From assembly GCA_013265495.1 (NCBI GenBank), contig MU058059.1:3635502-3695501 (forward strand): 60,000 nucleotides of DNA, in the 5' to 3' direction. The DNA comes from Vicugna vicugna (lineage: Eukaryota). The position numbers and the translations under genes are program-made. This document shows positions 10,867-48,030 of this stretch, one piece after another (position 1 is the first letter of the stretch; each line of letters opens with the position of its first letter). The notes under the pieces were generated by a model that worked only from the letters and a program-made list of their open reading frames with translations, was not told the DNA's origin and searched no databases.

Positions 10867-11884
10867 CTTCTTACTTTCTTGTCAGCTCTCTGGTATGAGT
10901 GTGGTGTTTTTCTGGAACCTGAAGACTGCTTAGTTGCCGCGTAGCTGGCTCTGGGCCTTTGCCTTCACAGGGAAGGCCACGCCATCCTTGTTTGCAGACG
11001 TTAGTCTGATTCCAGGTTGGAATCTGAGCACACTTGAAAAGTCCCTTTGAAATGAATTCTAGTTACTGCTAGGGAAAGAGTAGGAAGGAGAGTCAGGTAT
11101 GTGCGAGACAGGGTTGTTACTCGTGGTGGGGTGGGCCGGGGGCAGGGGAAGGCGGTGAGGAAAGGGCGAGCGCGCTGGCCCCAGGGGGACGCCGAGCAGC
11201 CTGAGGCACTTGTTCACCACGATTCCGGCGAGCGTCTCAGTGTCTCGAGGCGGAGTGGAGAGTGTTGCTGAGGAGATGAAGGGACCCTCTCTCTGTTTGC
11301 GTCCCAGGTCGTGGAATTGAGTCCCTTTTCTTTTCCCGTGATGCGTGTTTGTGTTCATTATCTTCCCTTCAGTGTTTATTTCCTTCCATTATCTTTTCCC
11401 ACTGATCGAAGTTAGGTTTTCTTTTACGTGTTTTTCGTAGGCAGTCTCCTAATTTTATCGGCATAATTGTGATAATGCCCCCTTTCCCCTAGCACCTCAT
11501 TTGAATGACAGAGTCAGAGCACTGAAAGCTAGCTTCACGTGTGGGTTTTGGCTGGCGTCAGTCACTCAGCGCAGTGCCCGGAGCGCTGGGCTCGGGGGTG
11601 GGTGCGGGGAGCGTGGCTGCCACTCCCCCGGCGCTGCTGTAGGAAGGGGCATCCGAGGGGCTGCGGAGCCTCCCCCGGGACGGATGAGGGAGAGGGCCAC
11701 GTGCCTCGTTTGCTTAACAAACATTTGGTACCTAGAAACCTTCTCAATAACGAAATTGAAAATCGTCAAAACTTCATTGAAATACTTTTTTGGAGAAGAA
11801 GGATGTGGCATTTACGGTTCTTTGTAAGGCCAGTGAGGAGACTGAGTCCATTAAACAGCTCCCTCCGCTGTCTCTGTTACGCAG

Positions 11885-12058
11885 AATGACATGGAGCCTA
11901 GCAAAACGGCGCCCCTGAACGCCGCGAAACAAGACGGGCCGCTGCCCAAGCCGCACAGCGCTTCCCTCAGCGACACGGAGACCAGGAAGCTGATGGAGGA
12001 GTGCAAGCGGCTGCAGGGGGAGGTGCTGAAGCTGTCGGAGGAGAACCGGCACCTGAGG
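11885..12058 (+). CDS. VAPA: VAPA exon 5 (linker and coiled coil; NDMEPSK...EENRHLR)
   Basis: AG at 11883-11884, gtgagt donor at 12059, 174 nt, VAP coiled-coil translation. Confidence 0.96.
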
Positions 12059-12607
12059 GTGAGTGCGCCGGAGGCTGTGCCTGCCTGTCCTGCTTAGCTT
12101 TATCCTCTTGCAGTTCTGTTTTCTTCCCCCAGTTTGATCACGTCCTGGTTGCGGTGCCCCACCCCTAGCCAGAGCCCACAAACCGTCAGAAGAGCCAGTA
12201 CTGCACATGAAGCAGTGTGAGATCAGGTGGACTCTTGGTCGGTGTTAGTGAACACACTGGAGGAATCAGAGTGGGTGCGTAAGCATGAGCTTGCGCCAAG
12301 GAGGTGGAAGCCCTGCCCTGCCGTTCCTCTGGTCGGGGTCTGCGCCCGATGAAGCCAGCTGCCCCGGCAAATGGGCGTCATCACTCTCCCCATGGTCATT
12401 CTATACCTGCTAAGTGTCGTAACAGCCTCCTACTTCAAATGACAGCTGTTTTCTTGATGAGAGACCTTGCCCCGAAAATCATGGACTGTCAGAGACTTTG
12501 CCGTGTGAAAACGTATCAGTAGGAGCAGAGCAGCCCACTCTCGCCGGGGGGTGGGCCGCAGTCACCGATGCAGACACAGCCCCCCTCCCCAGTCCAGCAG
12601 CAGAACC
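11885..12607 (+). repeat. Copy 1 of a 723-bp direct duplication (exon 5 plus first 549 nt of intron 5)
   Basis: No differences from 13168-13890 found by eye (offset 1283). The ORF track shows identical peptides at 12304-12522 and 13587-13805. Confidence 0.95.
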
Positions 12608-12750
12608 ACCACCGACGGAGCGGCGGGCGTCGGCTTCGGAGCCGAGGGTGGCCCCGTGTGGAGCCGGGCCGAGCCGCGCCGCCGCCGCTCCCCGCCCGCA
12701 GCTAGCGAGCCGCCGCCGCGGGCGCGTCCCCGCTCTGCACTGTCTGTCCG

Positions 12751-13341
12751 ATGGCGTCCGCCTCCGGGGCCGTGGCGAAGCACGAGCAGACCCTGGTCCT
12801 CGACCCGCCCACAGACCTCAAATTTAAAGGCCCCTTCACAGATGTAATCACTACAAATCTAAAGTTGCGGAATCCATCGGATAGAAAAGTGTGTTTCAAG
12901 GTGAAGACTACAGCGCCCCGTCGGTACTGTGTGCGGCCCAACAGTGGGATTATCGACCCGGGCTTGACCGTGACTGTCTCAGCAATGCTGCAGCCTTTCG
13001 ACTACGACCCCAACGAGAAGAGTAAGCATAAGTTTATGGTACAGACCATTTTCGCCCCACCGAACTTTTCAGATATGGAAGCTGTGTGGAAAGAGGCAAA
13101 ACCCGATGAATTAATGGATTCTAAATTGAGATGTGTATTTGAAATGCCCAATGAAAATGATAAACTGAATGACATGGAGCCTAGCAAAACGGCGCCCCTG
13201 AACGCCGCGAAACAAGACGGGCCGCTGCCCAAGCCGCACAGCGCTTCCCTCAGCGACACGGAGACCAGGAAGCTGATGGAGGAGTGCAAGCGGCTGCAGG
13301 GGGAGGTGCTGAAGCTGTCGGAGGAGAACCGGCACCTGAGG
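12751..13341 (+). CDS. VAPA: Intact intronless VAPA exon 1-5 coding frame (197 codons) ending at a GT donor. Spliced to exon 6 it gives 249 aa; unspliced it reads to the stop at 13380 (209 aa, no TM anchor).
   Basis: ORF 12751-13380 [29 protein letters not shown]...[18 protein letters not shown] (VAP consensus), with no frameshift or stop. Expression is unknown. Confidence 0.8.
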
Positions 13342-13890
13342 GTGAGTGCGCCGGAGGCTGTGCCTGCCTGTCCTGCTTAGCTTTATCCTCTTGCAGTTCT
13401 GTTTTCTTCCCCCAGTTTGATCACGTCCTGGTTGCGGTGCCCCACCCCTAGCCAGAGCCCACAAACCGTCAGAAGAGCCAGTACTGCACATGAAGCAGTG
13501 TGAGATCAGGTGGACTCTTGGTCGGTGTTAGTGAACACACTGGAGGAATCAGAGTGGGTGCGTAAGCATGAGCTTGCGCCAAGGAGGTGGAAGCCCTGCC
13601 CTGCCGTTCCTCTGGTCGGGGTCTGCGCCCGATGAAGCCAGCTGCCCCGGCAAATGGGCGTCATCACTCTCCCCATGGTCATTCTATACCTGCTAAGTGT
13701 CGTAACAGCCTCCTACTTCAAATGACAGCTGTTTTCTTGATGAGAGACCTTGCCCCGAAAATCATGGACTGTCAGAGACTTTGCCGTGTGAAAACGTATC
13801 AGTAGGAGCAGAGCAGCCCACTCTCGCCGGGGGGTGGGCCGCAGTCACCGATGCAGACACAGCCCCCCTCCCCAGTCCAGCAGCAGAACC
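13168..13890 (+). repeat. Copy 2 of the 723-bp direct duplication
   Basis: Ends ...cagcagcagaacc at 13890 exactly as copy 1 does at 12607; unique intron sequence then resumes (tcacaggc...). Confidence 0.95.
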
Positions 13891-14314
13891 TCACAGGCAG
13901 GTTCTGCACCCCGCACCCCAGTCTCCGTGTCTGTAGTCTCCACGAAGCAGGATTCTGTCTCCTCTGCCGCCCAGACCCAGCGCTGGCCCTCAGACACACA
14001 CGCAGCCCTCCTGCTTGACTCTGAGCGTGTCACAACGCGGTGTTTCTGCTTCATCCTGAACCTCTCTCTCCCCCAAGCCCTGTAAAGTCCTGTCTCTTCC
14101 TTGTGCCTCTGCTGGGCAGGTGCCCTGATGGCAGTGAGTCGGTAAACCGACCTCCGGCCGCCTTTGCCCTGGCTTTGTTTCCGGGCGTCTTTGGCTGATG
14201 GGGCTAGGGTAGGTGTGGCCCGTGTGAAGATGCCGCGGCCCGCCTGGGAGGTGGCGCCTGCACAGACCTCTTCTTTAACTGTGTTAATCTTAGGGGTGTA
14301 TTTCTCAGTTCCGC

Positions 14315-14540
14315 TTTTTAAAATCAGCATTACTGAGATGTAATTTACATTCCGGAGACACCCATTGTGAATGTGTGTACAGTTCAGTGAGTTTAGTAAA
14401 TTTACAGAGTTGTGTAGCAATCACTAGGACCCAGTTTTAGAATATTTCTTTTGAGCTAGAAGGTTTCTCAGGCCGGCTCGCAGCTGATCCCTGTCCCTGG
14501 CCCCAGTCGTGTGCGTACTAGTCTGCTTTCTGTCTGCAGA
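14315..14540 (-). mobile_element. Old L1 (L1MB-like) 3'-end fragment in intron 5
   Basis: ttactgagatgtaatttaca...gtgtacagttcagtgagttt...gttgtgtagcaatcact motif. Confidence 0.55.
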
Positions 14541-14608
14541 TCGTTAGCTCAGTAGCCTTACACGTGTTTGTTCTTCAAACCTCTTTATGTGTGTGTATTT
14601 TTTTCTAG

Positions 14609-14767
14609 GATGAAGGCTTAAGGCTCAGAAAAGTAGCACATTCGGAAAAACCTGGATCAACCTCAGCTGCGTCCTTCAGAGAGGACGTCACCAGCCCCCT
14701 TCCTTCACTTCTTGTTGTAATTGCAGCCATTTTCATTGGATTCTTTCTAGGGAAGTTCATCTTGTAG
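14609..14767 (+). CDS. VAPA: VAPA terminal coding exon 6 (DEGLRLRK...[19 protein letters not shown]), C-terminal TM anchor
   Basis: ttttctag acceptor at 14607-14608, TAG at 14765-14767, hydrophobic tail anchor with a GxxxG motif. Confidence 0.96.
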
Positions 14768-15365
14768 AGTGGCGCATGCAGAGTGCTGTTTCTTTTTTTC
14801 CCTTTTGACCAGAAAAAGATTTGTTCACCTGCCATCTCACTGGTAGTGTGGCCCACGGTGACCATTTGTGTGTACAGCGTCATATAGGCCTCGCCTTCAG
14901 TGGTCTCTTACGGTTAGAAACACAGTCAGAACAGCGTGCTCGGCTCCGGACAGATTGTACGTCACAGACCATCACTAGCAGATGCCAGTTGCACATTCAG
15001 TCCTGTATGAAATTCATAAGTAAAGAATTGTTCTTTCTTTGTGGTTTTAATAAGAGTTCAAGAATTGTTCAGAGTCTTGTAAATGTTATTTTAATAATCC
15101 CTTTAAATTTTATCTGTTGCTGTTACCTCTTGAAATATGATTTATTTAGATTGCTAATCCCACTCATTCAGGAAATGCCAAGAGGTGTTCTGCGGGGAAA
15201 TGGTGCCTCTTACAGTGTAAATTTTCTCCTTTACCTTTGCTAATATCATGGCAGAATTTTCTTACCCCTTGTGAGGCAGTTGTTGACTGAGTTTTTCATC
15301 CTTACAATCCTGTCCCATGGTATTTAACATAAAAATAATAAAACTGTTAACAGATTCTTGCTCGA
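14768..15365 (+). other. VAPA: VAPA 3'UTR (proximal part)
   Basis: AU-rich sequence between the stop codon and AATAAA; the end coordinate is approximate. Confidence 0.7.
15337..15342 (+). terminator. Polyadenylation signal AATAAA
   Basis: AATAAA followed about 30 nt later by a GT-rich element (tgtttgtgtctgtcgtgtc). Confidence 0.7.
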
Positions 15366-18300
15366 TAGCTTGTTTGTGTCTGTCGTGTCTTTAGTCGGGA
15401 AACCAGGGTGCACTGTGTGGTGATTTGAGTTATAAAATGCGTAATTTATCTTACCTTTCGGATATTATAGTGTCTGTGGTTAAAAGCCCTCGTTCTGTTA
15501 AGGAAAGGAATTGATAAAATTTCAGGCGGTTTTTGGTGTTTTGGAAGGTCATAATCCATTTATCTTCAAGGTGATATGAAACAAGTACCATGAGAATCGA
15601 AGTGTGTAGTTTCAGTCAGCTTGCGTGTCTGCCCTGTGGCTCTGTCGCGTCTGCTTTTCCCCGTTCTTAGCAGGGTCTTCCAGTGTTGTCTCAAGGAAGG
15701 TTAGTTCTCCCTGGTTCTAGTTACTGCTTTCTGACCAGCCTAATTGTTCTCCTACAGCGTTTATGCATAGTAGTAGTTACAAGTAGGGTTCTTCCCTGTC
15801 TAGTTTGACACTCAGATTCCCATTATGGAAATTTGGCGTTACTGAACTCAGTGTAAAGCCTTGGGAGTTTCTTTGTGAAACGTGACTTTATCCTTTCCAA
15901 ATCTGTCTGGTAACCATGTGAAGCAGGTTTTCAGTCTCAATATGCCTTTCTGGGGTCTGATAGACTTTCCTGCACTTAGTCTTGTGTCTTCATTTAATTT
16001 GTACCGGCATGGAACATTTTGGAGCCAGGGAAGATGTTCATTTTTTCTAAGTAGAATCTAATACAGGTGAATTTTGGTTTTTGAAAATATGTGTTGGCTT
16101 TGTAAAAGATGCACTTACATCTGAAAGGGAAATTGGATGTTGGGACCTGACTTGGTGCGGTGAAGTATGTTAGGCCCAGGTCTGCGTGTCCATCACATAA
16201 AGGAGTGAATGGTCTGGTAAATTTTGGTTGCGTTTTCATTTCAGGTATGTTTTGGGTTTGTTAGAGCCCATAGACTGCACGTGTGCAGGGGTCACCGCGC
16301 AGCCGCAGTCCGGCCCGTGCACTCCGGCGCGGCCGCAGGGCGCGCAGTGAGACGTGCTTCGTGCTCCGGTAGCTGGAAAAGCAGGTGAGAAACGGGCCTG
16401 CGTCTTCATCCCGTCAGTGCGGGGTCAGTGATTCCTTGGCTTAGAACTCTATGTAATCAGTGTTATTGGTGATGGGTGTCCAGCTTCATACTTCATAGCT
16501 CTCGATTTTTTTTAAGTTCAAGTTCTCAAATGTAGCACAGTCCTGTTTTGTGGGGATGCTGCTTAGAGTTCACCGTGTGGACCCCGTTGTTTTCTGGTTG
16601 AGGAATCTGAGGCCTTTACGAGAGTTGAGAGAGCTTTCCTCGTGTCTCACGGGTGGATAGAGGCAGAGCTGGCCCTAGAAATCTCTCCTGAATCCACTGT
16701 AGCGTCTTTCTCTGGTGACTTTGTAGAGAAAAAAATTTACCCTAATTTGACATGACTGAAATAATGAAGGTAAGATGCTGTTTGATAAGCACGTGTGAGA
16801 TCCCCGTCGTCGTAAGACGGTCCTGCAGGCTGTGGAGTTGTCTCGGGCGTGTCCGCATGCAGGGAAGAGGCTAGAAATCTCGCTCCCAGCTGGTGGTAAG
16901 TAACCGTTGTGAAGTACAGTGTCTTTTTAGGTAGGCATTTTACAGAATGCGTAATGCATGGATAGTTTTTGGGGAGAGTGTGGTCTGGGTAGCACCTGCA
17001 AAATGAAGCTTTCCCGGGCTTAACAGCTTTGCCTGTCAGGAGACGCTCCGACTGTGTCGGGGACTTTGACGGCTGTGGGAAGCGTGATCCAGTCACTTCA
17101 CCAGCGGTGACTCTAAGGGTCCAGCTGTATTAATGGACTGATAACATACAGACTGAATTGTCTGTCTTCACTCCATGCGTGTTGAGGACGTTTTGCCTCG
17201 TCTGCCTGCTGACTCGTGAACGTGGGCATGAGGCAAGGCTGCCAGGGGACCGCGTCCCAGTCAGTAGGCCTTACGTTCCCCTGCGATGCGGCCCGCCTGC
17301 CCGCCCGCCCGCCTCCCGCTCCTCCTGCGCCTGGTGGACCTGGACTCTGCCCGTTCTTGCCTTTACAACAAATTTAAGAATTGTATTCTGAGTGTGGGGT
17401 ATGGCACCTTAAAGAAAGAGAAATGACACTTGAAAAAACTATGTATCAAATTCAGACATTCTGGTCAAAGAAAAAAAATCTTGATTTCTCCTTCAGTTGT
17501 CTCAGAAGTTCCCGAAGGTTGATATTATCTGCTGTGGGAATTACTTCTGGATTGTAGTCATTCAAAACATGCCACTTTGAGAACAAGTTTTATCAACAAG
17601 GTAAGAAGGAAAACAGTTCTTACAGTTTCGTTCCTAAACGTACTCCTTCGGCACTTTGAAAGCACTCCAGTGCCTGTTTTCCCAGAGCTTTGTGCACTCC
17701 TGTTCAGTGGTTTGGGTGTGTGCACAGGTTTTTGAAAATTGCCCTTTATGAGCGATGGGGAGAGATGGCTGGCTGTCGTGTGGAAGGACATCAGAATAAG
17801 GTAAATGATCTTCATATTCTAGCTTTCAGAGGAAATTAAACTATTGCGTGAATAAATAAACTTTAAAAATGTGGTGAAGTGTCATTTTCCTTTCTAAAAA
17901 ACTGAAAGGACTTCGGCAGAGCGTGATGGTTTGTGTATTAATGTCTGTCGGGCAGTAATAGCCAGTGACGGCCTGGGACTTGAGTCCTGGTGGCAGTCTT
18001 TTCTAAGCGACCGTGAGTTTAAGGGCCTTCGGCAGGAAAGGGGGCAGCTGCTTTTTCATTTCCTCACGTGAGAGCCCGCAGTGGTCCAAGCCCGGCTTCT
18101 GGAGAGTTCTCTGCAGACAGTGCGTCTTGGAAGAATGCCCAGCCTGCGGGGGATTGGTGCCGAGAAGTTTGAGCATCCATCCCTAAAGGGAGAGGCTTTC
18201 TCTTCCTGCATTTCTCATTGTAGAAATAATGTGTGCGTTTTAGGGGACTCGGGAAATTACGAAAAGCGATGCCACGGCCTGGCGTCCAGCAGCGCCGGCG

Positions 18301-21300
18301 TCTGCGCGCGTTTACGCCCATGCAGTACTGGTGCTGTCTAGGTGGGATGAGTTACAGACAGCTCTGTAGCCTGGGGTTTTTCCACTTAAGCTGATTTCTC
18401 TGATTTATGGAAAACCAAGTATAAACGACTGCAGAAATACCTGCTTTATTTTTATGATCACTTCTTTGTAAAGTTACAGATGTTTTACCTACAGTGTAAA
18501 GCTTGATTGGCCAGGTAACTCCCTTTCTAATTACACCCTCCTTTTACCACATTCCCTGTTCTCAAACTGAGTTTCTCGTTTTCCAGTTGATCTTGTATGT
18601 AACTCCTACCTTGAAAACAGGTGCAGGAGACCCCTCAAGTCACCGTTCATTTTGTTAGGTTTTAGCCGTGGTGCTCAACTGCGGCCGTGTGTTAACTCAC
18701 AACACTCTTAAAGTGACCTGACACCCGAACGGCGCCTGGCAGATGCTGCCTGAGCTGGTTTGGGGCGGAGACCCAGCATCCATTTGTTTAATCTGCAGGA
18801 GACAGCTGCTCTGTAGGCTTTTAAATGCTAAAGCCAGGCACAAAATAGGTTTCAGTAAGACCTGAGTCCTGCAGTGTAGAGAAACTGCATTTTCAGAATT
18901 CCTTGTATGTCAGTCTTAAAATAAGTTGCAGGAATTACCTTTAGGTGTTGCTTGTTGCAAGAGCTGTCTTAAAGGTTGCGATGTTAAAACACCAGTGAAG
19001 GTTTTTAACTTGCAAATAGATCTGAGCTTTCTGTGCAAAAAGAAGTGATTTGAGAAATTTTGTGGGATTCAGTTTTAATTACTAGTTTGCTGGCAGACAC
19101 CCAAAATGACGACCCACCTAAGGTTTATTTCACCCATCATGTATTTCTTAAAGCATAAAATGGTTTTGAAGGTGCTTGTGTCATGTGCCAGGTTTCATGT
19201 CCTCGGGTAATACCCAGGTCCTGTGGAATAGGTCCTGTTCTTACCGCCATCCTAGGGGACGGGTGGAGAGGCTTAGAGAAATCAGCCATGCTCAGGGTTA
19301 CAGAGCTGTAACAGGGCAGACGTCAGATCCCGATGGGCTGGGCCTGGATCCCAGGCTCTTAACCATGTCATCTACCATGCGAGGGGAGTGACTTGTGTCC
19401 TGTCCAAACCAGGTCTTTACAAAAAAAAAAAATTTCATGCTGCTTTGTGATGTCTTAGATGCAGTGTAAAGGCAGTTTGGTCGTCCCTCCGCGTCTGCGG
19501 GGGCCGGTGCCAGGGGCCCCCACGGAATCCAGAGTCCAGGGATACCCCACTCCCTTGTCCAGAAGGGCGGGGAAGTCAGCGCTCGTGTCCGTGGGTGTGA
19601 CGCCTGCAGGTACGGAGTGCTGACTGCAACACTTCTGTGTAGCATTTCCTTGTGGAACCTTTGGTCCTGGGTTGGTGAAGACTTCTTTTCTCACCTTTGT
19701 CTCCCAAAGAAGTGAGAAGAGGTAACTGCCTGTTAACAATCTCAGCTCTCGAACAAAACCAGCACGAGCATAACTAAACAGGTTTAGTAATCCAGAGTCT
19801 GTGGGACTCAGAGATGGTTCGTGTGAACTTCAAGGCTGGGGAGCAGCGTGTGACCTCAGTCTTTTCTATGTGGTTCTTAAAGATTCAATGATTATATAAA
19901 CCACGTGTCTGAAACCTGGTAATTTATGGTCTAAATTCTAGACACTGTTTATAGCTCTGCGAAGAACAGAGGAGGTAAGTAACGTGCACACTCAGGACCT
20001 TGTGGGAAAATACAGGTCCTTTTTAGGGGGAGAAATTGTTGACAACTAAGTTCTAAGAAAATTCTTGGAGAGTTGAGATTGCAAGTAATTGTCTATTTTA
20101 CATTACTGAGCAGGAAGGATTTCTCATTTTAGTACCTTCCTTGTTTCAAGCAGTAGGGGTTTGTCAGGAGTTATGATACAGTTTTAATATCGTGTTGGGG
20201 GGCAGACTTGTGTGCCATTTTAATCCAGGTGTATGTCCCTAAGTGTGTAATATGTAGATAAATATGTGAGGGTGTGTGTCACACTACTTTGAATTAGATT
20301 TAGGGAAATACTTCCCTTGAAAAATTGAGCTTGAAGGAGAACTGTTGAGAAGCCCAGGAGAGCTTTGCTGCAGAGTGGGTGCTGTTGTGTACTTTGCCAG
20401 AAACTAAGTTTTATGAAATGACTGAAATAAAATCAAGATTTTCTTTTAAAAGTTTAATGATCATGTTTAATTCATCAAGTGCATCCACATCTTCTCAAAG
20501 GAAAGATGCTCTTACACTCTGAGATTGCACCCCCAACCCCTGCCGTGGAATTGGTCAGCCGGGAGATTCCTCGTATGTTTTAAGAAATCGTGGTTTCTTA
20601 CCAAGATTCTTCATTCTGCAATGCAGACATACCTTCTTGAGGATCTTAATTTTTAATTGGGTGAAGTGTTCCTTTGTAAGACACGTGGGTGGAATTTCAG
20701 GGAGGTCTGGAATATGTATATGAAGGGTCTTGATGTGAACTTCATAAAGTGCTAAAAATTTGTGTTCATCCTCAGAACGCTTGCACAGCAAGGCGACGTG
20801 AGGGGACAGGGGCCGTTACTGAGGTCTTAGTGAGTCTTGTAACACCCGTGCGTTTGGTGGAGTTAGTAAATGGTACGCATATTCCCACAGGCAGTGTTCA
20901 AACTAGTTAAGTATGTAAACATTCTTTCCAGCCAATACTCCTACCTCTCGTCTCCAAAGCAGTGCACCGCAGCCAAGGACTGAGCCTCGCCGCGCCGCGC
21001 CCCGCCCCGCCCATGGCGGGGACAAGCTGGGCACCAGCCCGTGGCGGGCTTCTCTCCCCTTTGTGTCTCTTTTGCCCCTTTCCATGACATTGTCCTCAGC
21101 TTTAACGTTTTATTTCTCCATATTTGCTTTAGATGCTTTTGTTCAAGGGGTAAATCATCGAAGTCCCCTTTGTACGCTTCCCTGGTCGCGTTTCCCTGGC
21201 GGACACGCGCCTCAAGTTTATGTCCTTCTTGTCCGTGCGTCAGTCTCTTACCACGCGTGTGTGTGACTGTGTGTGCTGTACTTTCGTGCTTTAAAATGTG

Positions 21301-24300
21301 ACTTCCCTAGTCCTCCTGTCACTTACAAGTCCCTCCTTGGAGGCCCCACACTTCCCAGTACAGCCCTTGGCGTCCCGTGTGTCCGCAGGGCAGGGCGCCC
21401 TCTCCTCTGCCGGCGTGGACCCTGGAGGGACGTTGCCTGTCGCCGCCTTTGCAGGGTTGACACGGTGGCCCGACACCTGCCTGCCCCTCCTGCCGACGCT
21501 GCCCCTCTCACGGCCGGGCCTTGCTCTAGGGCTGAGGTACCAAGGCGGTCAGGACAGTTGGTCTGACAGGTGTCGCCCTCAGAGCCACCGGCTGTGTGCC
21601 TGTGTCCTACGCACACGTGGCCGTAGGAGGGAGCAGAGGAGGTCGAGGACGCGTGTTTATGCACAGGCTGCAGGCTGCGTGGATGCTCCTGTGTGTGTTG
21701 GGCGGAGGTGGTTTTTCTTGCATGTTTTGAAGATGCAGAAATGTCATAAAAATGGGCAACTCCTACTTTTGAAAAACTCAAGGCATGGAACACAGGGCTT
21801 GTGCCCCCACACGCAGAGATGTGCTGGCGCTGAGTTTTACCTGCAGTGCCCGTCACTCCCTGTCTTAAGCTTCTTCCGCCTTAGTTCCCGCACGGTCCCT
21901 GCGTTCATCTCAGTTGCTCACTTTCTCACAGAGGACAAGAACTTGGGGGCGTGGGCTCGTCCAGACTGGCCGGGGGCGGGGTGGGGGAGCGAGCTGGGTC
22001 CTGCCCCAGGCTTGGGTCTTTGCTGCACTGGGCTGCCCCCGACAGGAGGGCAGTGAAACCGTGAGACTGGCTTCATGGTGTTCAATTCAGTAAAAGCGAG
22101 AACTTGCTGTGGTCTCAGGCACTCTAAGGACTGGGAGTAGTAAATAAAAAATTTTCTGCTTTTGAGAATCTTGGCATCAAGAGCGACTCACTGCATCGTG
22201 GCTAGAAGCTGGGGTGTGGCTGCAACGTGGTTTCCGAATTCAAGGTATTTTGAAAGCCAGGCTCTTTATAGCTGGCCTTTCCGCCAGATTATCAGCTACA
22301 GGAGTGGTTTCTAGCATCACAGTGTCAGTTATGGAACGTGAGCAGCTTGGGAAGGAAGCGCTTACGACAAGCCTGGGGTCTGGGGTCACACCACGCCGTT
22401 ATAATTCGGCCTGGTCGCCCTGCTAGGTACCACCCAGGGCATCTTCTCTGCACCCGGCTTTCTCCTCCGTCAGGCGGGATCCTAGCCGTGTCTGAGGAGC
22501 AGAGCTCGGTGTGAAGAGGATGCTCGGGAAATGAGCAGTTGTTCCATTCTGAGTAAATGTCCAGACCCCACAGTCCTACAAGACTTGCCACCCCCGCTCA
22601 CCTGCTCCTTCCTTCTCTCCATCTTGCTGGTCTCTGGGGATTCACGGAACACTCCAGCACGTTGTAGGCTCGCAGGCTGTGTGTGCTGTGATCTCTGCCC
22701 GAGCGCTCCCCCTCTGTGCCCACGTGGCTCGGCATCACCTCCGGGAGGCCTTCCTGGGCCACCCTGGCTGGATTGAGCGCCCCCCCCACAACCGCCACTG
22801 CCGTCACCGTGTGCCCACTTCACCTGTGTTCTGTCTGCTCCTCCACCAGGATGGAGATTCCGTGGGATTTTGTACGTTTTGTTCACTGCTGTAGTCCCTG
22901 TGCCTGGGACAGACTGCATGTCGTAGGTGCTTAATGAATGTTGAGAGAAGCCTTGTGCATGCACCCGGGTTGACAACACAACGCGTGACCTGCTATGAAT
23001 TTTAGTTCACAGAGAACTCGGAAGCCCTGCCCTGGTTCCACACCCCTCCCCTTGAAGCTCCGACCCCAGCAGGACCCTTGCAGCCCCTCCACCTGCAGCC
23101 TCTGAGCAGCCTCTGGCCACCACACTGGCCAGATGTCCGCCTGTCGCTGGAGAAGACACTGCAGGGCGGGGGAGGGGCGCGCTCCTTCCTCGTTCTCGTG
23201 CCTCCTTGGAATCAGCCTTTCCTCTTCCGCTTGCACAGCGGTTCCTGGTCCCTGGAGCCCACCCTGCGAGGGGCCCACCTCTCCACCTGGCCCCGCTCAC
23301 GCCCGGGGACCGCACTGGCCAGTTCCCAGTTCCTGAAACTGTCCTCACCCCCTCTGCCACCCACACTCGCGCCTCTTCCTGGAGGTTGTCGCCACCAGGA
23401 CAGAAGCATCTCAAGAGCGTGGAGCGCAGCGGCCCTGCTCTGCACCACGACCTTCCATCTTCCATGCAGCTGAGGAGCCTCCCCTGGTGCCACGTTCCCC
23501 CCGTGAGCAGCTTTTGTCTCGTCTCCTCAATCAGCTTTGGCTCCGCCGTCCTGGATGATAATCCCTCTGCAGCCCTCTTTCCTCACCACCCTGTCCGGCA
23601 CACGCCCACCCCCTCTGGGTTCACAGGGCATGTTCTAGGTCCAGGGAAGTTTCCAGAAAGTGCAGACAGAGGTCTTTGGGTGGCTCGGGGCATCCCCATC
23701 CTTTTAGTTTAGGGCCCTTTTAGCATCGCACACAAGATGAGCATGTGTGTAAGATCAGACCATCTTGACTAGACGACGGAGCCACGCGGGCCTCGTGCCT
23801 GCTGGAGCTCAGGGGCCAGGCAGGCACCCACGTAACTGTGTGCCGTCGGCAGTCACTGGGAGTGAAGCAAGCCTTGGGCCTGGAGGGGAGGAGGGGCTTC
23901 CTGCGGGTTCTGGGCCCAGGCCCGGGGTAGGTGGCGTGGCTGGCATGGCCGGCGGGCATGCACCTGTGTGCTCTTGTGGAACTTTGTTTCCTCCCACCAG
24001 GGGAGATGGTGGTGACAGGGCTCAGAGGGTCCTGCCAGCCCCAAGGGGCGTGTCTGTGTTTGGCCCCAACCTCAGGAATGGGGGGAACGCGATTGGGGGG
24101 AGCAGGGCCCCTTCCTACCAGATGTGGCTCAGGCATTCCTGGGCAAGGCCCCTGGGAACAGCTTCCCTTCCCTCAGGAGTCACTGGGTGGCCTCAGGCTC
24201 TGCTCCAAAGGGCAGAGGAGCAGGCCTGGGCACCGAGACCCGCGGGCCGGGGCTCCAATGTGCAGCCCTGAGTTCTTTTGTCCATAAATGCTGGTTATTA

Positions 24301-24808
24301 CACGACATCGCTTTGTCTTAGGAAATTCTCCTCAAAATCTCAGCCCCAATATTTTTAACTCTTGTGATGTGTTGGAAGTAAGAATCACAAGACTTCCTTG
24401 GATTCGGGTAACACCTGTGCTTGGCACTCTTTCTAAAACTAGGTCAATAACTGCATTTGGTTTCCTAACCTCCGAAGCCTTGCCAGCTTTGTTCTGGCTA
24501 AATGGTACTGCTGGGTTTTAAGGTAAAGAGGGGTCTTGGAAGTGCTGTATGTCCTCCAGGGCCACCTGGCGGGTGCTCACCGTGGTCCCCAGGTGTCAGT
24601 GGGGTGGGGCTGTATCCCGCAGGAGGAAAGGGCTAACAGATCTTCTAAGAAGACTTGGGCGTGTTGTTTTAATTTGGCATCTCCAACACCCTGTCCCTCA
24701 GACGCTTTCATTTTTCTTGAGGTTAAGTGATAACCAACATTTCGTTTTTACTATTTAAAAGGGAGAGGCTGGCTGGCTCTCAAAATGAATGGTTGTAAAG
24801 TTTGACAC

Positions 24809-24827
24809 CGCCACCAGGTGGCAGTGC
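24809..24827 (+). promoter_or_regulatory. Candidate CTCF binding site
   Basis: CGCCACCAGGTGGCAGTGC closely matches the CTCF core CCACCAG(G/A)(G/T)GGC(A/G). Confidence 0.5.
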
Positions 24828-25624
24828 AGTCTTAAGTCTTGAGTCTGGACCCCGGAAACCCCAGCTAACTGGTTTATCATCTCAAACAACTCAAACTGGT
24901 AAATATATTTTTAATTTAAACTGCAATTACCAACTGAAGGAAGTATTTGTCTTGATTTTAAGGACAGATACAAAACTTACCTCCCTTAGAAGATAAGAGA
25001 TAGTTGATATAAAGCGTTTCCCATTATAAAATTGGGATAATTACAGCGATCAGGGGGGTAAACCCTGGTGGTGTCATTCATGAAGAGATACTACAGAATA
25101 CCTTCAGTTTCATTGCTGACATTCGTTGTAAGTGTTAATGTTTTCAATAATGTCTTCTAACTGCATAAGGTGTGTGTTTATCAGCGTCCGATCCTTCACT
25201 CAAATGTTGACAACTTTCTGATTTAACGATGGACGTGGTTAAATTCTGGGCTCCACGTGTGTCCCCCCTACGCCCACAGGCTAACACGCAAAAGGCCTGT
25301 CTACGTACAAAGTACCAGACTGAACCTCCAACACGGGGAAAGCAAAGCTTAAAAACAACAGAAATTTAAAAAGCTGAAACTCCTGCCTTTTTTTATTGTT
25401 AAAAACATCCGTATATAATTGTCCTGAGTTTACTGTTTGAAACTCGGGTGAGAGGGACCTCACTGACTTTCTTGCTTTTGGATGCTTTAGTTTTTCTCTG
25501 CTCTCAGCTGCCACCGAAGACTTGTCTGGGTTCGTGCACACCTGTTCGGAACAGATCTTACCTAAAATGCACGCTGCCTGTGCTCGAACGCAGCCCCCTC
25601 GCTGGTGCTAAGGGCCAGGGGAGG

Positions 25625-25930
25625 GGAGGTTCCAGATGGTTAATTCCTGAATTTAAAATAGGGCGCTTTCCAGAGTATCCGGATGGGCCCAGTGTGGTCA
25701 CAGGGGTCCTTGTAGCTGGCAGAGGGGACTGTCGCGATGACAGCGCCAGACGGGCTCAGCCCGAGGCTTCGAGTCCAGGGTTGGGGGGGCTACACTCTGT
25801 GGGACCCAGAGGGGACACCGCCGCCCACACTCTGATTTTACCCCAGGAGACCTGTTTTGGATGTGTGACCTCCAGACTCGTGAGGTGATAAGTCTGCGTT
25901 GTTCTGAGCCACCTAGTTTGTGGAAACAGT
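25625..25930 (+). mobile_element. MaLR LTR remnant (MLT1-like)
   Basis: ggatgggcccagtgtggtcacaggggtcctt ... tgacctccagac ... gccacctagtttgtgg resemble MLT1 LTR motifs. Confidence 0.55.
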
Positions 25931-26681
25931 GCTGGTGTTGGCAGTACTACAGGCAGCATGCAGGGTGGGCGGTCCCCGCCGTCTCACGGCTCTGACGGCT
26001 GAGAAATGGCAGTTCTTTGTTTGCTGGAGAAAGTGATCGTTCTCAGCCTCCTCAGGCAGAGGTTGGAGGGACATTCACGTTTAGTCCTGTACTTTCTGAA
26101 ATCCAGTCTTCATCCAATAATTAAAAAAAATCTCTTCAGGCAATGCTGTGGTGTTGGGTTTGGGAGTCATTCACTCTTGCTTCCATCCTTGGCCGGCAGT
26201 GTGTGTGAGGTGACCTGGGGGCAGCGGGTGAGGGGCCCCGGCTCCTGCGGGGCTCTGAGGCCCCAGCCCCTTGGGACCTCTGGGCAGGCTGGGTCTGTGC
26301 GGACAGAGCCTCAGGCCTGCTCCCTCCGCAGCGCTGCCCACCTGTGACCCGTGAAGCCCGCCAGCTGCCGGGCGAGCGGTCCCAAGTTGGCCTGGACCCC
26401 TCCGGGTGGCCTTCAGGGACCTTCCAGGGCCCACTGACCCTCCATTCTCCATCCACCCCCAACTCCAAGTCACATCCAAGTGATGGGTGGTCGGGTCGGG
26501 GGTGGGAATTGATTCAACTTCTCCAACTTTGGTTCTTAAAAAAACTAAAAGAAACTGTAACAGCCCTCCCAGGAGGGAAGCAAGCCTGGTTTTCAGCCTC
26601 TGGCCCTGCTCAAGGGACAAGCTCTAGCACCCCCTTGCCCCAGAGCAGTAAGTCTGGGGACCACGGAGGAACGCGCTTTAG

Positions 26682-26800
26682 CAGAGGTCAGTGAACTATG
26701 GTCCCTGGGTCAAATCCAGCCCCCTGCCTGCTTTTGTAAATAAAGCTTTATTGGGACACACACAGTGCACACTTGAGGAGTTGCTGTACGTGTCTCCGTA
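26682..26800. mobile_element. MER58-like hAT DNA transposon fragment
   Basis: cagaggtcagtgaactatgg...caaatccagcc...ttttgtaaataaagctttattgg. Confidence 0.5.
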
Positions 26801-28554
26801 GCAGAGTGGTTCCCGTCGGTCTCAGGCTTCTGGTGGTGACGCTGCCAGTTAGGGGAGACCTGGGCCGCCCTGCCGGGGCAGCTCCCACAGACGTCCCCCT
26901 GGGCAGAGCCGTGGGAGGACACACAGCCCGCCCAGGCTGCTCATCCGAGTCAGGTCGAGAGACAGGGAGGGAGAAAGGACCTGGGGCTCTGCCTTTGTTA
27001 GGGTCCCAGGTCGTGTGCCTGGGGTTTGGCTGGTACACTCCTTATTGGTGACTCTAAAGCATAAGAGTGGAGATTGGGGCGCAGGGAGGGAGAAGCGGGG
27101 TCACTCGAGTGGTCAGTTACCTGGGTCGCGTGGGACCTTGTGGAAGGGGGACTTGGGTGGGTGCAGGCTCCTTGTGCAGGTGTGTAGCTGGGTGTCTGCG
27201 ACGTGGATGCCTCCACAGTCAGACCTAATTGTCAGGCACTTACCTGTCCCGGGGTGGAGCTGGAACGGGAGCCTGGATCTCTGTCCTCAAAAGTGCAAAC
27301 CCTCCACCCTGGGCAGGTGTGCAGAGGTGCGAATGCCTCCGGGTAAGGAAATCTGGTCCTGTGGCCAGAGTTGGAAGGGAAGGACAGTGTCTCTCCCCTG
27401 TAATCAGAGGAACATCTTTCCCTCCACCTGGCTTGGGAAACCAGTAAGATGGGGATTACCAGCAACCTCCATAAGGGGCTCCTGCTGAAGCCTCTGCCTC
27501 GAAGGGAGAGCAAAGGGTGGGGACCACTGGGAACGCCTGCTTCTCCTTAGGCTGTGTGCAGAGGGGCTGGGTGGGGTTCATGGCGCCATTAGACGGTTTA
27601 TCCCAAGGGTGAGCAGATGCCCTTTCCTGACGTATTTCAGTGGGGAGGAATGATGCCTTGGGACACTTTCAATGAAAAAAAATCTGATTTTGGCTTTTGG
27701 GGAGTAGTTTCAGGTTTGCGCCTTTGCATACCACTTCTGATGATGTTCTTTGACTTCTAAGGGAACGCTTTTTTATTGACCATAAAGAATAAAACAATCC
27801 TTGTGGTGTCCAAACCATGGTCCACAAATTCAGCCTGGAAGCATCTGTAAAAAGCAAACAAACAGGCCAAAAACCGCCACACAGACTTTTAGAGAATAAA
27901 ATATAACTTTTAAGATGTTTACCACTCCGAATAAAGGCATTTTGGAAATCCAAGCAGGCATTACAATGAGCTTTTACAAAGTTAGGGTAATGGATTTCCT
28001 GTGAAATCCACACGGCTGGAGGGCAGGCCTGCCCACCCTCCCCAAGTCACTCTCCCCGCCCTCTGCACCGGCAGCCCCAGCTGCTGTCAGGTAGCGTTTC
28101 GGCCACTAGGACGGTGTTTCCAGGTCTCCTCTGTAGCTGGAGGGGACCATGTGACACCGCGATACAGACCAGTTGGAAGTACCTGGGGGGCTGCTGGACG
28201 TTTCTGGGACATTTCACTTTCTCACTTTACCTCCATCACTTTTATTCCCCCTGACGTTTTCCAGGTTGAAACACGAATGTGGTTGGTTTTATGTCTAGTG
28301 GTCATTTTAGGACCATGAGGTAAAGACTAAGAATTACAGAACGCCTCTGCCATCACCTCCCTGCCTCTCACAATTCACCAGACACATCCCCCCTGCTTCC
28401 AAAACTGGGCAGAGAGGGAGTGGGAGACCAGCCTGGCTGCCAGCGGAGTGGCGGACAGCTCTTCCTGGAGTGATGTCCTTTTGCTGGATAGATCCCTTTA
28501 TCTCTGCATAATGCCTTTTTTTTTTTGATCACTTATTACAGCCTATGTTTTAAG

Positions 28555-28653
28555 GTGTGTGTGTATATATATATATNNNNNNNNNNNNNNNNNNNNNNNN
28601 NNNNNNNNNNNNNNNNNNNNNNNNNNNNNNNNNNNNNNNNNNNNNNNNNNNTT

Positions 28654-29754: not shown

Positions 29755-29903
29755 TCTTTAGCTCTGATAGGTTCTTTTTAATATTTTGTCTCTCTCTGTT
29801 GAAGTTCTCAGCGTGTTCCTCCATTCTTCTTTAGCTCTGATAGGTTCTTTTTAATGTTTTGTCTCTCTCTGTTGAAGTTCTCAGCGTGTTCCTCCATTCT
29901 TCT
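29755..29903. repeat. 73-bp tandem duplication within the L1 remnant
   Basis: gctctgataggttcttttt... starts at 29761 and again at 29834, with one mismatch. Confidence 0.9.
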
Positions 29904-37800: not shown

Positions 37801-38480
37801 CTCGTTTCTGTGATGATGAGGTTGAGTGAGGTGGTCTTCAACGCCCCTTTCAGGACAAAACCTAGACTGTTGTAGAGACTCCTGAGATCCAGGGAGCACC
37901 TTCGGAGGCTGGAGACACAAACACTGTAGGAGGTGGCCCATCTTCTGCCGGACAGGCGAGGGAGACCAGGATGCAATGACAGCCCGTGGGTTTGAGGCAG
38001 AAATGTCCTTTTCGTAAAGCACCTGCATAAGGCCACATGTGCCGCCCAGAGCTGGGACGTCCTGGTGGTCTCTGAAGGTCCTGGCAGGCTGCCTCCTGGC
38101 CTGTGGAGCCCGGGCTTCTGTTAGAGCAAGTGATGGCAGACTTGAGCCCCAGTGTTTAGACTCTGCATTCTGGGCTTTCCCCCGACGCTGCGTTGTTGCC
38201 CAAGAAATTCTAGACTGAGTCCGTCCATAACTTTTTTCCAAACTGAGGATGGCCCATTTGGGAGTTTCCATCATTCTTGCTCGAGTAAGAACCCTGCATC
38301 TAGACCGTCAGGCCTTGCTCCTCACACTGCCTGTCCCGCCTTCTCCCCACACGTGTCCCCGTTACCAGGTGCTCTTGCCAGAAGGGATTTCTGGTGACTG
38401 CCATTTTCTGTACTTTGTTGCACCTGTGCTCTTCAGGAACATTAAATAGGTAAGCAGTTTTGGAAACACGTCAAGAAAAG

Positions 38481-38638
38481 TGAGCAAGCGGAGGGGACAT
38501 AGCTCGGGTAGAGTGCACACCTAGCATGAACAACGTCCTGGGTTCGAGTCCCAGTACCTCCGTTAAAATAAATAAATAAATAAAAGCCTAATTGCCTCCC
38601 TCCAAATAACTAAATAAATTTTTTTTTAAATGAGCAAG
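38481..38638 (+). mobile_element. tRNA-derived SINE (Vic-1-like) with TSD tgagcaag
   Basis: tagctcgggtagagtg (A-box), ggttcgagtccc (B-box), A-rich tail; tgagcaag at 38481-38488 and 38631-38638. Confidence 0.8.
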
Positions 38639-38689
38639 GCTTCATCTTGATGCATACAAAGAACATCTTTTCCCCTGCATTCTCATGTC

Positions 38690-38835
38690 CATCCTCCCGT
38701 CCATTCATGCATCCACCCAAGAAAGAATGTATTTATCCATCCATCCATCCACCCATCCGTCCATCCGTCCATCCATCCATTTATCCATCTACCTGTCTAT
38801 CCACCCATCCATCCATCTACCCGTCTATCCACCCA
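38690..38835. repeat. Degenerate (CCAT)n tetranucleotide repeat
   Basis: Directly visible. Confidence 0.85.
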
Positions 38836-44051: not shown

Positions 44052-44180
44052 CCTACTTACCTACCAGTCTACCCACCCACCCACTTACTTACTTACCTAC
44101 CCATCTACTTACCTACCCACCCACCCACCTACTTACCTACTCATCTACCCACCTACCCACCCACCTACTTACCTACCCAT
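44052..44180. repeat. Degenerate (CCTA/CCCA/CTTA)n tetranucleotide repeat
   Basis: Directly visible. Confidence 0.85.
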
Positions 44181-44829
44181 TATAAAAGAAATGCTTATAT
44201 AAGCAAATACATAAAGACTCAAGGATGTGGAACTGATATATTCCTGTTTGACATTCAAGTGGTTTGGACTGCATTTCAGAAGGTCACCTTTGGTACAAGT
44301 GAAGTTTTAAAATTTGGATCCAGCAAGGCCAGGACAGCATCGTGACCTTACCTCTAAGATGTCCAGGTTACTTTTCGCCTTGCCCACCAGTTCCTTGCAA
44401 GAATCCTAAGGACGTCTTGGGCAGTGAGGAGAGACCTAACCAGGGGTGAGTGGTCTGGGCTCTATAAGCTGGATGGGCTCCTAGCACACGGGGTCCATGG
44501 AGAGGGAGGCCAAGTCCGGCCAGACCAGCAGCCACTGAAGAAATGTGAAACCACCGCACGTGTTTCTCAAAGTCACTCTCCCTTCAGTGCTTGAAGCAGA
44601 TAGGCCTCTGTCATAAACACGCTAATTGCTTATCAAATATTGACTAACACTGAGTCGTTTTCTTTCCGGGCAAGTCACATTCCTAAATCATTAGCAAATG
44701 AGAGGTTTGTGAAAAAATTTGCCAAAGCCTCTGGGTGTGTGTGCACATGGTTAATGGTCAGCAAATAGATAGTTTTCTTTATTGCCTGGAGAGTCTGTTT
44801 AATGTTTAATCTGAAAAATTTTACCACTC

Positions 44830-45080
44830 ACAGGTGGTGTCTAAAGTGGTCACCTTCACAGAAACAGAAAGTAGAATGGGGGCTGCTGGTGCGGGGGAGG
44901 CGGGGAGCGGAGTTCTTGCTCAGCGGGGATGGAGCCTCAGTTTTGCGAGATGAAGAAGCTTCGGTGGTCTGTTGCAGAACAACGTGAACATGTGAACATA
45001 CTTAACGCCGCTGAACTGTACGCCCAAAACTGGGTGAGGTGGTAAATTTTATGTTATGTGTTTTTTACCACAGTTGCGAA
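44830..45080 (+). mobile_element. Old L1 (L1MB-like) 3' end
   Basis: acagaaagtagaatgg...gatgaagaag...ctgaactgtac...gtaaattttatgttatgtgtttttta. Confidence 0.65.
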
Positions 45081-47810: not shown

Positions 47811-48030
47811 TGGGGTGGGCGGCCAGATTTAGGAAAAACGAACCCCTAGACAAACAGAGAACAAAATTCCCCCAAGCCAGACGCCCAGGCACATTTAGAT
47901 CTCAGATGAACGATGAAAAGTTTTTAGTGTGTGTCCCGGGGAACACTTGAGATGTACTTGTAGTGAAGAATTATTTGTTGTTTATCTGAGCTTCAATCCC
48001 GCGGGCATCTCGGGTCTCATCCGTAGCCCT
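47811..48030. mobile_element. MER53-like DNA transposon remnant
   Basis: gccagatttag...tcagatgaac...tttttagt...ttgtttatctga resembles MER53. Confidence 0.45.

What the first reader, a model, noticed from the sequence alone, without database searches (positions are those of the whole stretch)
12751..14767. Possible nested two-exon VAPA gene sharing the parent's last exon
Seen: the fused E1-E5 frame is open from ATG 12751 to an intact gtgagt donor at 13342 in phase 0, matching exon 6. 591 + 159 nt = 249 codons plus stop, a complete MSP, coiled-coil and TM protein. Inference: if transcription starts near the CpG-rich copied 5'UTR, the locus encodes a second compact VAPA. It could also be an intermediate of cDNA-mediated intron loss should the upstream exons decay.
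Basis: partly seen in the sequence, partly recalled or inferred. Interest (0 to 1): 0.8.

Follow-up and report, generated by a model that had tools for sequence, protein, structure and literature searches.

The report
Pseudogene-derived VAPA block inside VAPA intron
An intron of the VAPA gene holds a fused, still readable copy of the gene's first five exons that appears to have been copied very recently from a processed pseudogene elsewhere in the genome during DNA repair, and nothing yet shows that it works as a second gene.

Summary
The structure is as described. Window 12608-13341 is an intron-less 5'UTR+E1-E5 block in VAPA intron 5. ATG 12751, the gtgagt donor at 13342 and exon 6 (14609-14767) give 249 codons plus stop.

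The genome holds a classical processed retrocopy, R, on another scaffold, with a target-site duplication and a poly(A) tail. The nested block (N) carries R's bases at 13 of 13 sites where R differs from the parent between 12634 and 13062. From exon 5 onward N is parental (2 of 2 sites), and 724 bp are 100% identical to exon 5 plus the intron start. N has no poly(A), no target-site duplication and no promoter, and its 5' junction is untidy.

Best reading: a very young chimera made by homology-started, microhomology-ended repair synthesis that copied R into the parent gene and duplicated E5 plus 549 nt of intron. Its open frame is inherited from R.

Expression is untested. An assembly chimera in this short-read draft remains a serious rival.

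The parts
11885..12058 (+). Parental VAPA exon 5 (first copy of the duplicated exon)
   Evidence: acgcag|AATGAC acceptor and GAGG|gtgagt donor. Identical to 13168-13341.
12059..12607 (+). Segment A: first 549 nt of intron 5, first copy
   Evidence: 100% identical to 13342-13890. Holds pyrimidine-rich AG sites at 12131 and 12591-12599.
12608..12611 (+). Junction bases 'acca' that match neither the intron continuation (tcac at 13891) nor R or the parental UTR in register
   Evidence: If an 8-nt deletion between two CCGA repeats of the UTR is allowed, identity to R reaches back to 12609 and one base stays unexplained. The 40-nt junction string occurs once in the 2.03-Gb assembly.
12612..12750 (+). 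Copied 5'UTR, R-type, lacking the first ~80-84 nt of the transcript; one-base deletion in a G run after 12637 is private to N
   Evidence: R-type at 6 of 6 UTR sites (12634, 12647, 12660, 12689, 12727, 12739). In-frame TAG at 12703-12705. 5'UTR+E1 has GC 0.75 and CpG o/e 1.12.
12751..13167 (+). Fused coding exons 1-4, R-type
   Evidence: R-type at 7 of 7 sites (12772, 12791, 12825, 12847, 12983, 13029, 13062). These give M8V, I14T, V33I and V78A relative to the parent. The parent's residues match solved VAPA chains.
13168..13341 (+). Second copy of exon 5, parental type, ending in the same donor
   Evidence: Parent-type at 13182 (T) and 13283 (A), where R has G and C. Part of the 724-bp exact repeat.
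13342..13890 (+). Segment A', second copy of the first 549 nt of intron 5
13891..14608 (+). Remainder of intron 5 (B), single copy, with an interspersed repeat at about 14307-14498
   Evidence: only the window locus matches at full length; 38 of 40 matches are dispersed repeat copies.
14609..14767 (+). Exon 6 coding part (TM anchor), shared by the parent and the hypothetical nested gene; TAG at 14765-14767
14768..15367 (+). 3'UTR up to the poly(A) site used by retrocopy R
   Evidence: R aligns to 14608-15367 and is followed by 11-12 A.

Best explanation
N (12608-13341, plus the duplicated 13342-13890) is a very young, promoterless insertion-duplication in VAPA intron 5. It is a chimera of two genomic sources. 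The 5'UTR-E4 part was copied from the unlinked processed retrocopy R, or a near-identical copy. Exon 5 plus 549 nt of intron are the parent's own sequence, duplicated. Inferred mechanism: a broken end or collapsed fork at or just upstream of exon 5 invaded R through the 174-nt exon-5 homology. Repair synthesis then ran leftward through E4-E1 into the UTR. The nascent strand switched back to the VAPA chromatid by microhomology 549 nt inside intron 5 (break-induced replication or SDSA with template switching). This gives I4-E5-A-[UTR..E4]-E5-A-B. It is what a retropseudogene-to-parent conversion looks like when only one end resolves by homology. Had the other end resolved in exon 1, introns 1-4 would have been lost. 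Functionally N is most likely inert: it is transcribed only as part of intron 5 and its open frame is inherited from R. Its one predictable effect is a second, identical exon-5 donor in the pre-mRNA. Use of that donor would retain a stop-containing segment. Shown: the anatomy, the mosaic of R-type and parent-type bases, and the absence of retroposition hallmarks. Inferred: the repair pathway, the young age and the lack of function.
For: (1) N=R≠parent at 13 of 13 informative sites from 12634 to 13062, then N=parent≠R at 2 of 2 sites in exon 5. That is one switch point, between 13062 and 13182. (2) R is a bona fide L1-type retrocopy on a 37-kb scaffold: E1-E6 plus 3'UTR, AATAAA, 11-12 A, and a 14-15-nt target-site duplication. 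(3) R carries ~80 more 5'UTR bases that match the parent and are absent from N, so R cannot descend from N. (4) The four N/R amino-acid changes are derived: the parent residues I14, V33 and V78 are those of solved VAPA chains, and M8 is seen in 2cri. (5) N versus R shows 0 substitutions in 557 nt, and N versus parent shows 0 in 724 nt. If N and R were independent copies, about 5 R-private changes would be expected in those 557 nt from R's 3'-half rate of 9/933 (Poisson P(0)=0.005; Fisher p=0.03). (6) N has no poly(A) and no target-site duplication. It has 1-4 unexplained junction bases and a -1 slip in a G run, as expected of error-prone repair synthesis (the link to that pathway is recalled). 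(7) N-private 31-mers (starts 12578-12637) physically tie the junction to R-type bases at 12634, 12647 and 12660. Those starting 13152-13166 tie E4 to the parent-type T13182. (8) The parent's own exons 1-3 are kept distinct from R at all 17 sites, so the assembler did not simply blend the copies. (9) No other long near-exact repeat is present in the 60-kb window.
Against: The assembly is a scaffolded short-read draft with N runs of 16-1421 nt. In such drafts the 100% identities can come from collapsed repeats placed twice, so 'very young' may be overstated. None of the 14 DNA runs that hold the stretch exceeds a 0.91 share of the sampled words. A genome with parent + R but without N would give 0.941. 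The shares therefore give no positive sign of N in other animals and lean slightly against it. The polarity of the six 5'UTR sites is unknown because no outgroup was available. The R-parent differences are oddly clustered, so a uniform-rate expectation is crude. The junction does not show clean microhomology.
Confidence: 0.5

Rival explanations
1. Assembly chimera. N does not exist in the animal. A short-read assembler or gap closer threaded R-derived reads (which share exon-5 words with the parent) into intron 5 and placed the E5+A unitig twice.
For: The assembly is a scaffolded short-read draft with sized gaps. N consists only of sequence exactly equal to R or to the parent, apart from 4 junction bases and one homopolymer indel. 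No public DNA run reaches the word share expected if N were present (max 0.91 against 1.0; no-N expectation 0.941). False duplications are a known class of assembly error (PMC9516828, search listing and abstract start only). An earlier unchecked AI note reports another parent gene in this genome sharing a defect with its retrocopy (e1-7855719).
Against: A graph artefact needs shared words at both joins. The 60 words across 12578-12637 and the 15 across 13152-13166 exist in neither the parent locus nor R, so reads with these combinations must have been present, or two independent errors plus a polishing change are needed. There are no Ns at either join. The junction is unique in the assembly. 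The parent's exons and R are otherwise kept apart at 17 of 17 sites. No other spurious-looking exact duplicate is present in the window.
Confidence: 0.25
2. Direct RNA-templated copy of the parent's own partly spliced transcript. A nick at 12607|13891 primed reverse transcription on a nascent VAPA pre-mRNA with introns 1-4 removed and intron 5 retained. The bases shared with R would reflect a common source allele or assembly collapse.
For: This one-step model explains the layout exactly: the insert ends precisely where the duplicated intron segment ends. There is no poly(A) or target-site duplication, as in class 2 templated insertions made from RNA (PMC5110952, passages). RNA-templated break repair is reported in human cells (PMC12065846 and PMC11390984, search listing only).
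Against: N would then carry the parent's bases. It carries R's at 13 of 13 sites, four of them derived amino-acid changes in a very conserved protein, while its exon 5 and intron part are 0/724 diverged from the parent. A functional parental allele 2.3% different in exons 1-3 is implausible. Three R-type UTR bases are linked to N-private words, so collapse cannot explain all of them.
Confidence: 0.1
3. Working nested gene. Whatever its origin, N is transcribed from a start in or near the copied CpG-rich 5'UTR, splices 13341 to 14609 and makes a 249-aa VAPA variant (V8, T14, I33, A78).
For: Intact ATG, frame, donor and shared acceptor. The copied UTR+E1 keeps CpG o/e 1.12 at 75% GC. One GC box at 12692. 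MSP domain intact.
Against: N has no parental promoter and lacks the first ~80 nt of the transcript. No TATA was found. N lies inside a transcribed intron. It is too young for selection to have acted, and dN/dS 0.40 (4 nonsynonymous, 3 synonymous) is inherited from R. Five RNA runs hold 0.25-0.26 of the words, which fits parent mRNA alone (0.30) rather than parent plus R/N-type mRNA (0.53). However, these runs carry other organism labels and are contigs, so this is weak.
Confidence: 0.08

Closest known systems
Interlocus gene conversion from a retropseudogene to its functional parent (Casola et al. 2012, as cited in PMC5470649, passage read)
   Same: The donor is a processed pseudogene and the acceptor is the parent gene. 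A tract of pseudogene-type bases appears in the parent locus, and homology (here exon 5) brings the two together.
   Different: Here nothing in the parent is replaced. The tract is added inside an intron, spans four exon-exon joins, and comes with a 723-724-bp duplication and a non-homologous junction.
Sub-model of reverse-transcriptase-mediated intron loss: conversion of genomic DNA by intron-less processed pseudogenes (PMC3652778, passages read; the authors searched for traces and report 'no convincing results')
   Same: An intron-less pseudogene acts as template on its parent. If both ends had resolved by homology, introns 1-4 would be gone and the flanking exons would look pseudogene-like, exactly the trace that paper sought.
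   Different: No intron has been lost. This is at most a half-completed event, in one draft assembly.
Class 2 templated sequence insertion polymorphisms / break repair with distant templated patches (PMC5110952, passages read)
   Same: No target-site duplication and no poly(A). Junction with extra or ambiguous bases. The donor is still present elsewhere. The insert can contain several spliced exons.
   Different: Class 2 insertions land seemingly at random and are thought to be RNA-derived patches joined at both ends by end joining. Here one end is homologous, the target is the donor's own parent gene, and a flanking duplication results.
Microhomology-mediated break-induced replication / fork stalling and template switching (recalled: Hastings et al. 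2009, Lee et al. 2007; not read here)
   Same: Template switches, a duplication of several hundred bp, a short untidy junction, and a frameshift slip in newly made DNA.
   Different: The first switch used real homology to a dispersed retrocopy on another scaffold. The pathway is not demonstrable from sequence alone.
L1-mediated processed retrocopies and chimeric retrogenes that borrow host exons (PMC5470649, passages)
   Same: Intron-less coding block inside a host gene intron, on the same strand, with a donor that could splice to a host exon.
   Different: N lacks every L1 hallmark. The host is its own parent, and the 'borrowed' exon is the parent's own last exon.

Membership tests
L1-mediated processed retrocopy (applied to N) | 3' poly(A) tail after a polyadenylation signal | tested here: not met
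   N ends in exon 5 followed by intron sequence identical to the parent; no A tract.
L1-mediated processed retrocopy (applied to N) | Short target-site duplication flanking the insert | tested here: not met
   Instead there is a 723-724-bp repeat made of exon 5 plus intron. The 5' junction has 4 unmatched bases.
L1-mediated processed retrocopy (applied to N) | All introns of the copied stretch removed | tested here: met
   E1-E5 are joined exactly at the parental exon borders.
L1-mediated processed retrocopy (applied to R on scaffold C6441) | Poly(A), target-site duplication, full splicing | tested here: met
   11-12 A after AATAAA, (a)gaagttcatgcacg on both sides, E1-E6 plus 3'UTR colinear. 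That the flanks are L1 is recalled only: Pfam found nothing in 11 of 11 flank ORFs, though dispersed copies exist.
VAP family protein (MSP domain, coiled coil, C-terminal TM anchor) | MSP domain | tested here: met
   PF00635, E=7e-32, residues 15-117. Solved VAPA chain 6tqr_A at E=3.4e-120.
VAP family protein (MSP domain, coiled coil, C-terminal TM anchor) | Coiled coil and TM anchor present in the product | tested here: inconclusive
   These would come from exon 5 and the shared exon 6, which are identical to the parent's. No predictor was run, and splicing of N to exon 6 is unobserved.
Retropseudogene-to-parent gene conversion | Contiguous tract in the parent locus carrying donor-specific bases, bounded by acceptor-type sequence | tested here: met
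   13 of 13 donor-type sites, then 2 of 2 acceptor-type sites.
Retropseudogene-to-parent gene conversion | Non-reciprocal replacement of the homologous acceptor sequence | tested here: not met
   Parental exons 1-5 are all still in place and of parent type. The tract is an addition in intron 5.
Class 2 templated insertion / template-switch repair product | No TSD or poly(A); junction with microhomology or untemplated bases; donor retained | tested here: met
   Whether the bases at 12608-12611 are filler or slippage is ambiguous.
Class 2 templated insertion / template-switch repair product | Template was RNA (class 2) or DNA (break-induced replication) | not testable with these tools
   R's DNA and a transcript of R would leave the same product.
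Functional nested gene / retrogene | Own transcription start and spliced transcript | not testable with these tools
The RNA word shares are indirect and come from other organism labels.
Functional nested gene / retrogene | Purifying selection on the copy | tested here: inconclusive
   4 nonsynonymous and 3 synonymous differences from the parent, dN/dS 0.40, all inherited from R. There are zero N-private coding changes.

The most novel reading that the evidence does not exclude
N is real and is a half-finished conversion of a gene by its own processed pseudogene. It would be the first direct structural trace of the long-proposed but unsupported route to multi-intron loss in mammals, in which a genomic retrocopy rather than free cDNA is the template. 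As a by-product it would have created a complete, spliceable second VAPA reading frame inside the gene that could become a compact gene if it gains a start site.
Probability: 0.4. Interest if true: 0.65.

Novelty: new variant of a known kind. Interest (0 to 1): 0.45.

Why it matters
How introns are lost several at a time is still argued. The reverse-transcriptase model has a sub-model in which processed pseudogenes convert their parents, and a dedicated search found no convincing trace of it (PMC3652778). If it is real, this locus shows a retropseudogene finding its parent by homology and laying down four exon-exon joins in it. That makes the sub-model testable by genotyping relatives and looking for the completed product.

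It is also a caution for annotation. Variants that look specific to one copy can belong to a third copy elsewhere. An intact nested frame can arise with no selection at all.

Tried and rejected
1. Read laying. No read or contig evidence was obtained.

2. Word shares, compared with expectations:
- Parent locus only: 0.683.
- Parent + R without N: 0.941.
- With N: 1.0.
- All 14 DNA runs (12 organism A, 1 B, 1 C; studies P1-P5) lie at 0.83-0.91.
- RNA shares of 0.25-0.26 (5 runs) fit parent mRNA alone (0.302) rather than 0.531. Those runs carry other organism labels.

3. Exact look-up of N's read-through ORF (209 aa) and R's ORF (249 aa): neither of 2 is in the collection.

4. Homology search with a 109-aa ORF spanning the junction: 231 candidates, none at E<=0.001.

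5. Junction 40-mer in metagenome contigs: 0 matches.

6. Earlier findings: near, relatives and by-sequence look-ups returned nothing.

7. Literature for a nested or self-inserted VAPA retrocopy: 1 paper holds 'VAPA' and 'retrocopy', and by its title it is unrelated. Searches listed no case of a retrocopy-derived block in its own parent's intron. They cover open-access text only.

8. 'R descends from an N transcript' is rejected, because R has ~80 nt of parental 5'UTR that N lacks.

9. 'In-frame tandem VAPA-VAPA protein by exonising N' is rejected. TAG 12703-12705 is in frame, and candidate acceptors at 12596/12599 would include it.

10. An alternative haplotig without N: none in the assembly.

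11. Pfam on 36 long ORFs elsewhere in the window: 0 of 36 hit.
Full report
**Observation**

The window is a mammalian VAPA locus on the + strand. It lies in a 2.03-Gb, 12,405-scaffold assembly. Unchecked earlier notes of this scan call the genome a camelid.

Parental exons:
- Exon 3: 1883-1986.
- Exon 4: 2423-2503.
- Exon 5: 11885-12058.
- Exon 6: 14609-14767.
- Exons 1 and 2 lie 18 kb and 1 kb upstream of the window.

Inside intron 5, 12608-13341 is an intron-less block made of 143 nt of 5'UTR and then E1-E5 joined exactly at the parental exon borders. ATG 12751 opens a frame that runs to 13341. There the parent's own gtgagt donor follows. With exon 6 this gives 750 nt, i.e. 249 codons plus TAG. 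The product has an MSP domain (PF00635, E=7e-32) and aligns to solved VAPA chains.

- 13167-13890 equals 11884-12607 at 100% over 724 bp (one base is a chance match). The layout is therefore intron 4 - E5 - A(549 nt) - [UTR, E1-E4] - E5 - A - B - E6.
- N has no poly(A) and no short target-site duplication.
- Four bases (acca, 12608-12611) at the 5' junction fit neither side in register. Allowing an 8-nt slip between two CCGA repeats leaves one unexplained base.
- An in-frame TAG (12703-12705) closes the frame upstream of the ATG.

**A second copy changes the story**

Searching the whole assembly with the block gave 11 matches:
- N itself.
- The five parental exons.
- Four VAPB exons at 76-81% identity.
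- A 99% match on a 37,283-bp scaffold, C6441.

The C6441 copy (R) is a textbook processed retrocopy. It has a longer 5'UTR, E1-E6, and 3'UTR to an AATAAA site. It also has 11-12 A and a 14-15-nt direct repeat of the target on both sides. Its flanks are a dispersed repeat. That this repeat is L1 is my recollection, since Pfam found nothing in 11 of 11 flank ORFs.

A three-way alignment of the spliced parent (P), R and N shows:
- R differs from P at 26 of 1574 positions.
- In the part that N covers up to exon 3, N has R's base at 13 of 13 such sites. These are 12634, 12647, 12660, 12689, 12727, 12739, 12772, 12791, 12825, 12847, 12983, 13029 and 13062.
- In exon 5, N has P's base at 2 of 2 sites (13182, 13283).
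- N's only private features are a one-base deletion in a G run after 12637 and the junction bases.
- R has about 80 nt of parental 5'UTR that N lacks, so R cannot come from an N transcript.
- The four amino-acid changes shared by N and R (M8V, I14T, V33I, V78A) are derived. Solved mammalian VAPA chains carry the parent's residues.

**Inference on origin**

N matches R with 0 substitutions in 557 nt. It matches the parent with 0 in 724 nt.

Suppose N and R were independent copies of one mRNA. R's private changes should then be absent from N. At R's 3'-half rate (9/933), about 5 would be expected in those 557 nt, and none is seen (Poisson 0.005, Fisher 0.03). The R-P differences are clustered, so this is a rough figure: 10/225 in the 5'UTR, 7/140 at the start of the 3'UTR, and 0/460 in the rest.

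The simplest account is that N's left part was copied from R after R had diverged, and its right part is the parent's own.

Co-location with the parent, on the same strand and abutting exon 5, argues that exon-5 homology brought R and VAPA together. I therefore favour this sequence of events (the pathway is inferred, and its literature is recalled):
- An end at or just upstream of exon 5 invades R.
- Synthesis runs through E4-E1 into the UTR.
- The strand switches back by microhomology 549 nt into intron 5, duplicating E5+A.

The one-base slip and the untidy junction fit error-prone repair synthesis.

The elegant alternative is a nick at 12607 priming reverse transcription on the gene's own partly spliced RNA. 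It explains the layout in one step. It does not explain why N carries R's bases.

**Is it real?**

This could not be tested with reads.

Indirect points for reality:
- The 60 31-mers across the junction and the 15 joining E4 to T13182 occur in neither the parent locus nor R. A word-graph cannot invent them.
- They link the junction to three R-type bases.
- There are no Ns at either join.
- The junction is unique in the assembly.
- The parental exons are not blended with R.
- The window has no other long exact duplicate.

Points against:
- The assembly is a gapped short-read draft. Repeats placed twice are identical by construction in such drafts.
- All 14 public DNA runs holding the stretch have word shares of 0.83-0.91.
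- That is above the 0.683 expected from the parent locus alone, so an R-type copy is in all of them.
- It is not above the 0.941 expected without N.
- N is thus either rare or private, under-represented in contigs, or an artefact.

I put the artefact at about one in four.

**Function**

Features that argue against N working as a gene:
- It lacks the parental promoter and the first ~80 nt of the transcript.
- It sits in a transcribed intron.
- It has no private coding changes. Its dN/dS of 0.40 (4 nonsynonymous, 3 synonymous) is R's history.

The copied UTR+E1 is still CpG-rich (o/e 1.12), so a weak start cannot be excluded.

Five RNA runs hold 0.25-0.26 of the words. This is what parent mRNA alone predicts (0.302), not parent plus R/N-type mRNA (0.531). 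These runs are contigs from other organism labels, so the evidence is weak.

The likeliest molecular consequence is a second, identical exon-5 donor in the pre-mRNA. Using it, or exonising N from the pyrimidine-rich AGs at 12131 or 12591-12599, would bring in stop codons.

**Comparison with what is known**

- Retropseudogene-to-parent gene conversion is documented (passage in PMC5470649 citing Casola 2012).
- Break repair by templated patches without L1 hallmarks is documented (PMC5110952, passages).
- A pseudogene-templated sub-model of intron loss has been proposed, but its authors found no convincing trace (PMC3652778, passage).
- My searches listed no retrocopy-derived block inside its own parent's intron. 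They cover open-access text only.

N is not an L1 retrocopy (two hallmarks tested and not met). It is not a classical conversion either, because nothing is replaced. It works like a one-ended, template-switching version of the latter.

**Verdict**

- The nested-gene reading is possible but unsupported.
- The origin is reassigned to the processed pseudogene R.
- Reality awaits read evidence.

Noticed in passing
L002 731-2315 (-) = G000:C6441:22806-24390: Processed VAPA retrocopy R keeps an intact 249-codon frame with 5 nonsynonymous and 4 synonymous differences from the parent (dN/dS 0.37). Whether it is an expressed retrogene is open.
   Followed up: partly
R versus parent, window 14772-14907 and parental 5'UTR (L003 1420-1644): R-parent differences are strongly clustered: 10/225 in the 5'UTR, 7/140 in the first part of the 3'UTR, 0/159 in exon 6 coding, and 0/460 in the rest of the 3'UTR. 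No explanation was found.
   Followed up: no
window 14307-14498: Interspersed repeat in intron 5 with at least 38 copies at 72-86% identity on other scaffolds.
   Followed up: no
window 29755-29903: Two adjacent copies of a ~75-bp unit at 98.7% identity.
   Followed up: no
window 28577-28651; L003 1790-1893; L018 several: N runs of 75, 104 and 16-1421 bases indicate a scaffolded short-read assembly or withheld stretches. One of them sits just inside parental intron 1.
   Followed up: partly
window 21000-27500 and 32000-50700: GC-rich stretches (GC 0.55-0.64) carry many long open frames, but 0 of 36 frames of 150 aa or more had a Pfam match. They are probably non-coding CpG-rich DNA.
   Followed up: partly
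Together with N, this could mean recurrent retrocopy-to-parent transfer, or recurrent mixing of retrocopy reads into parent loci by the assembler.
   Followed up: no
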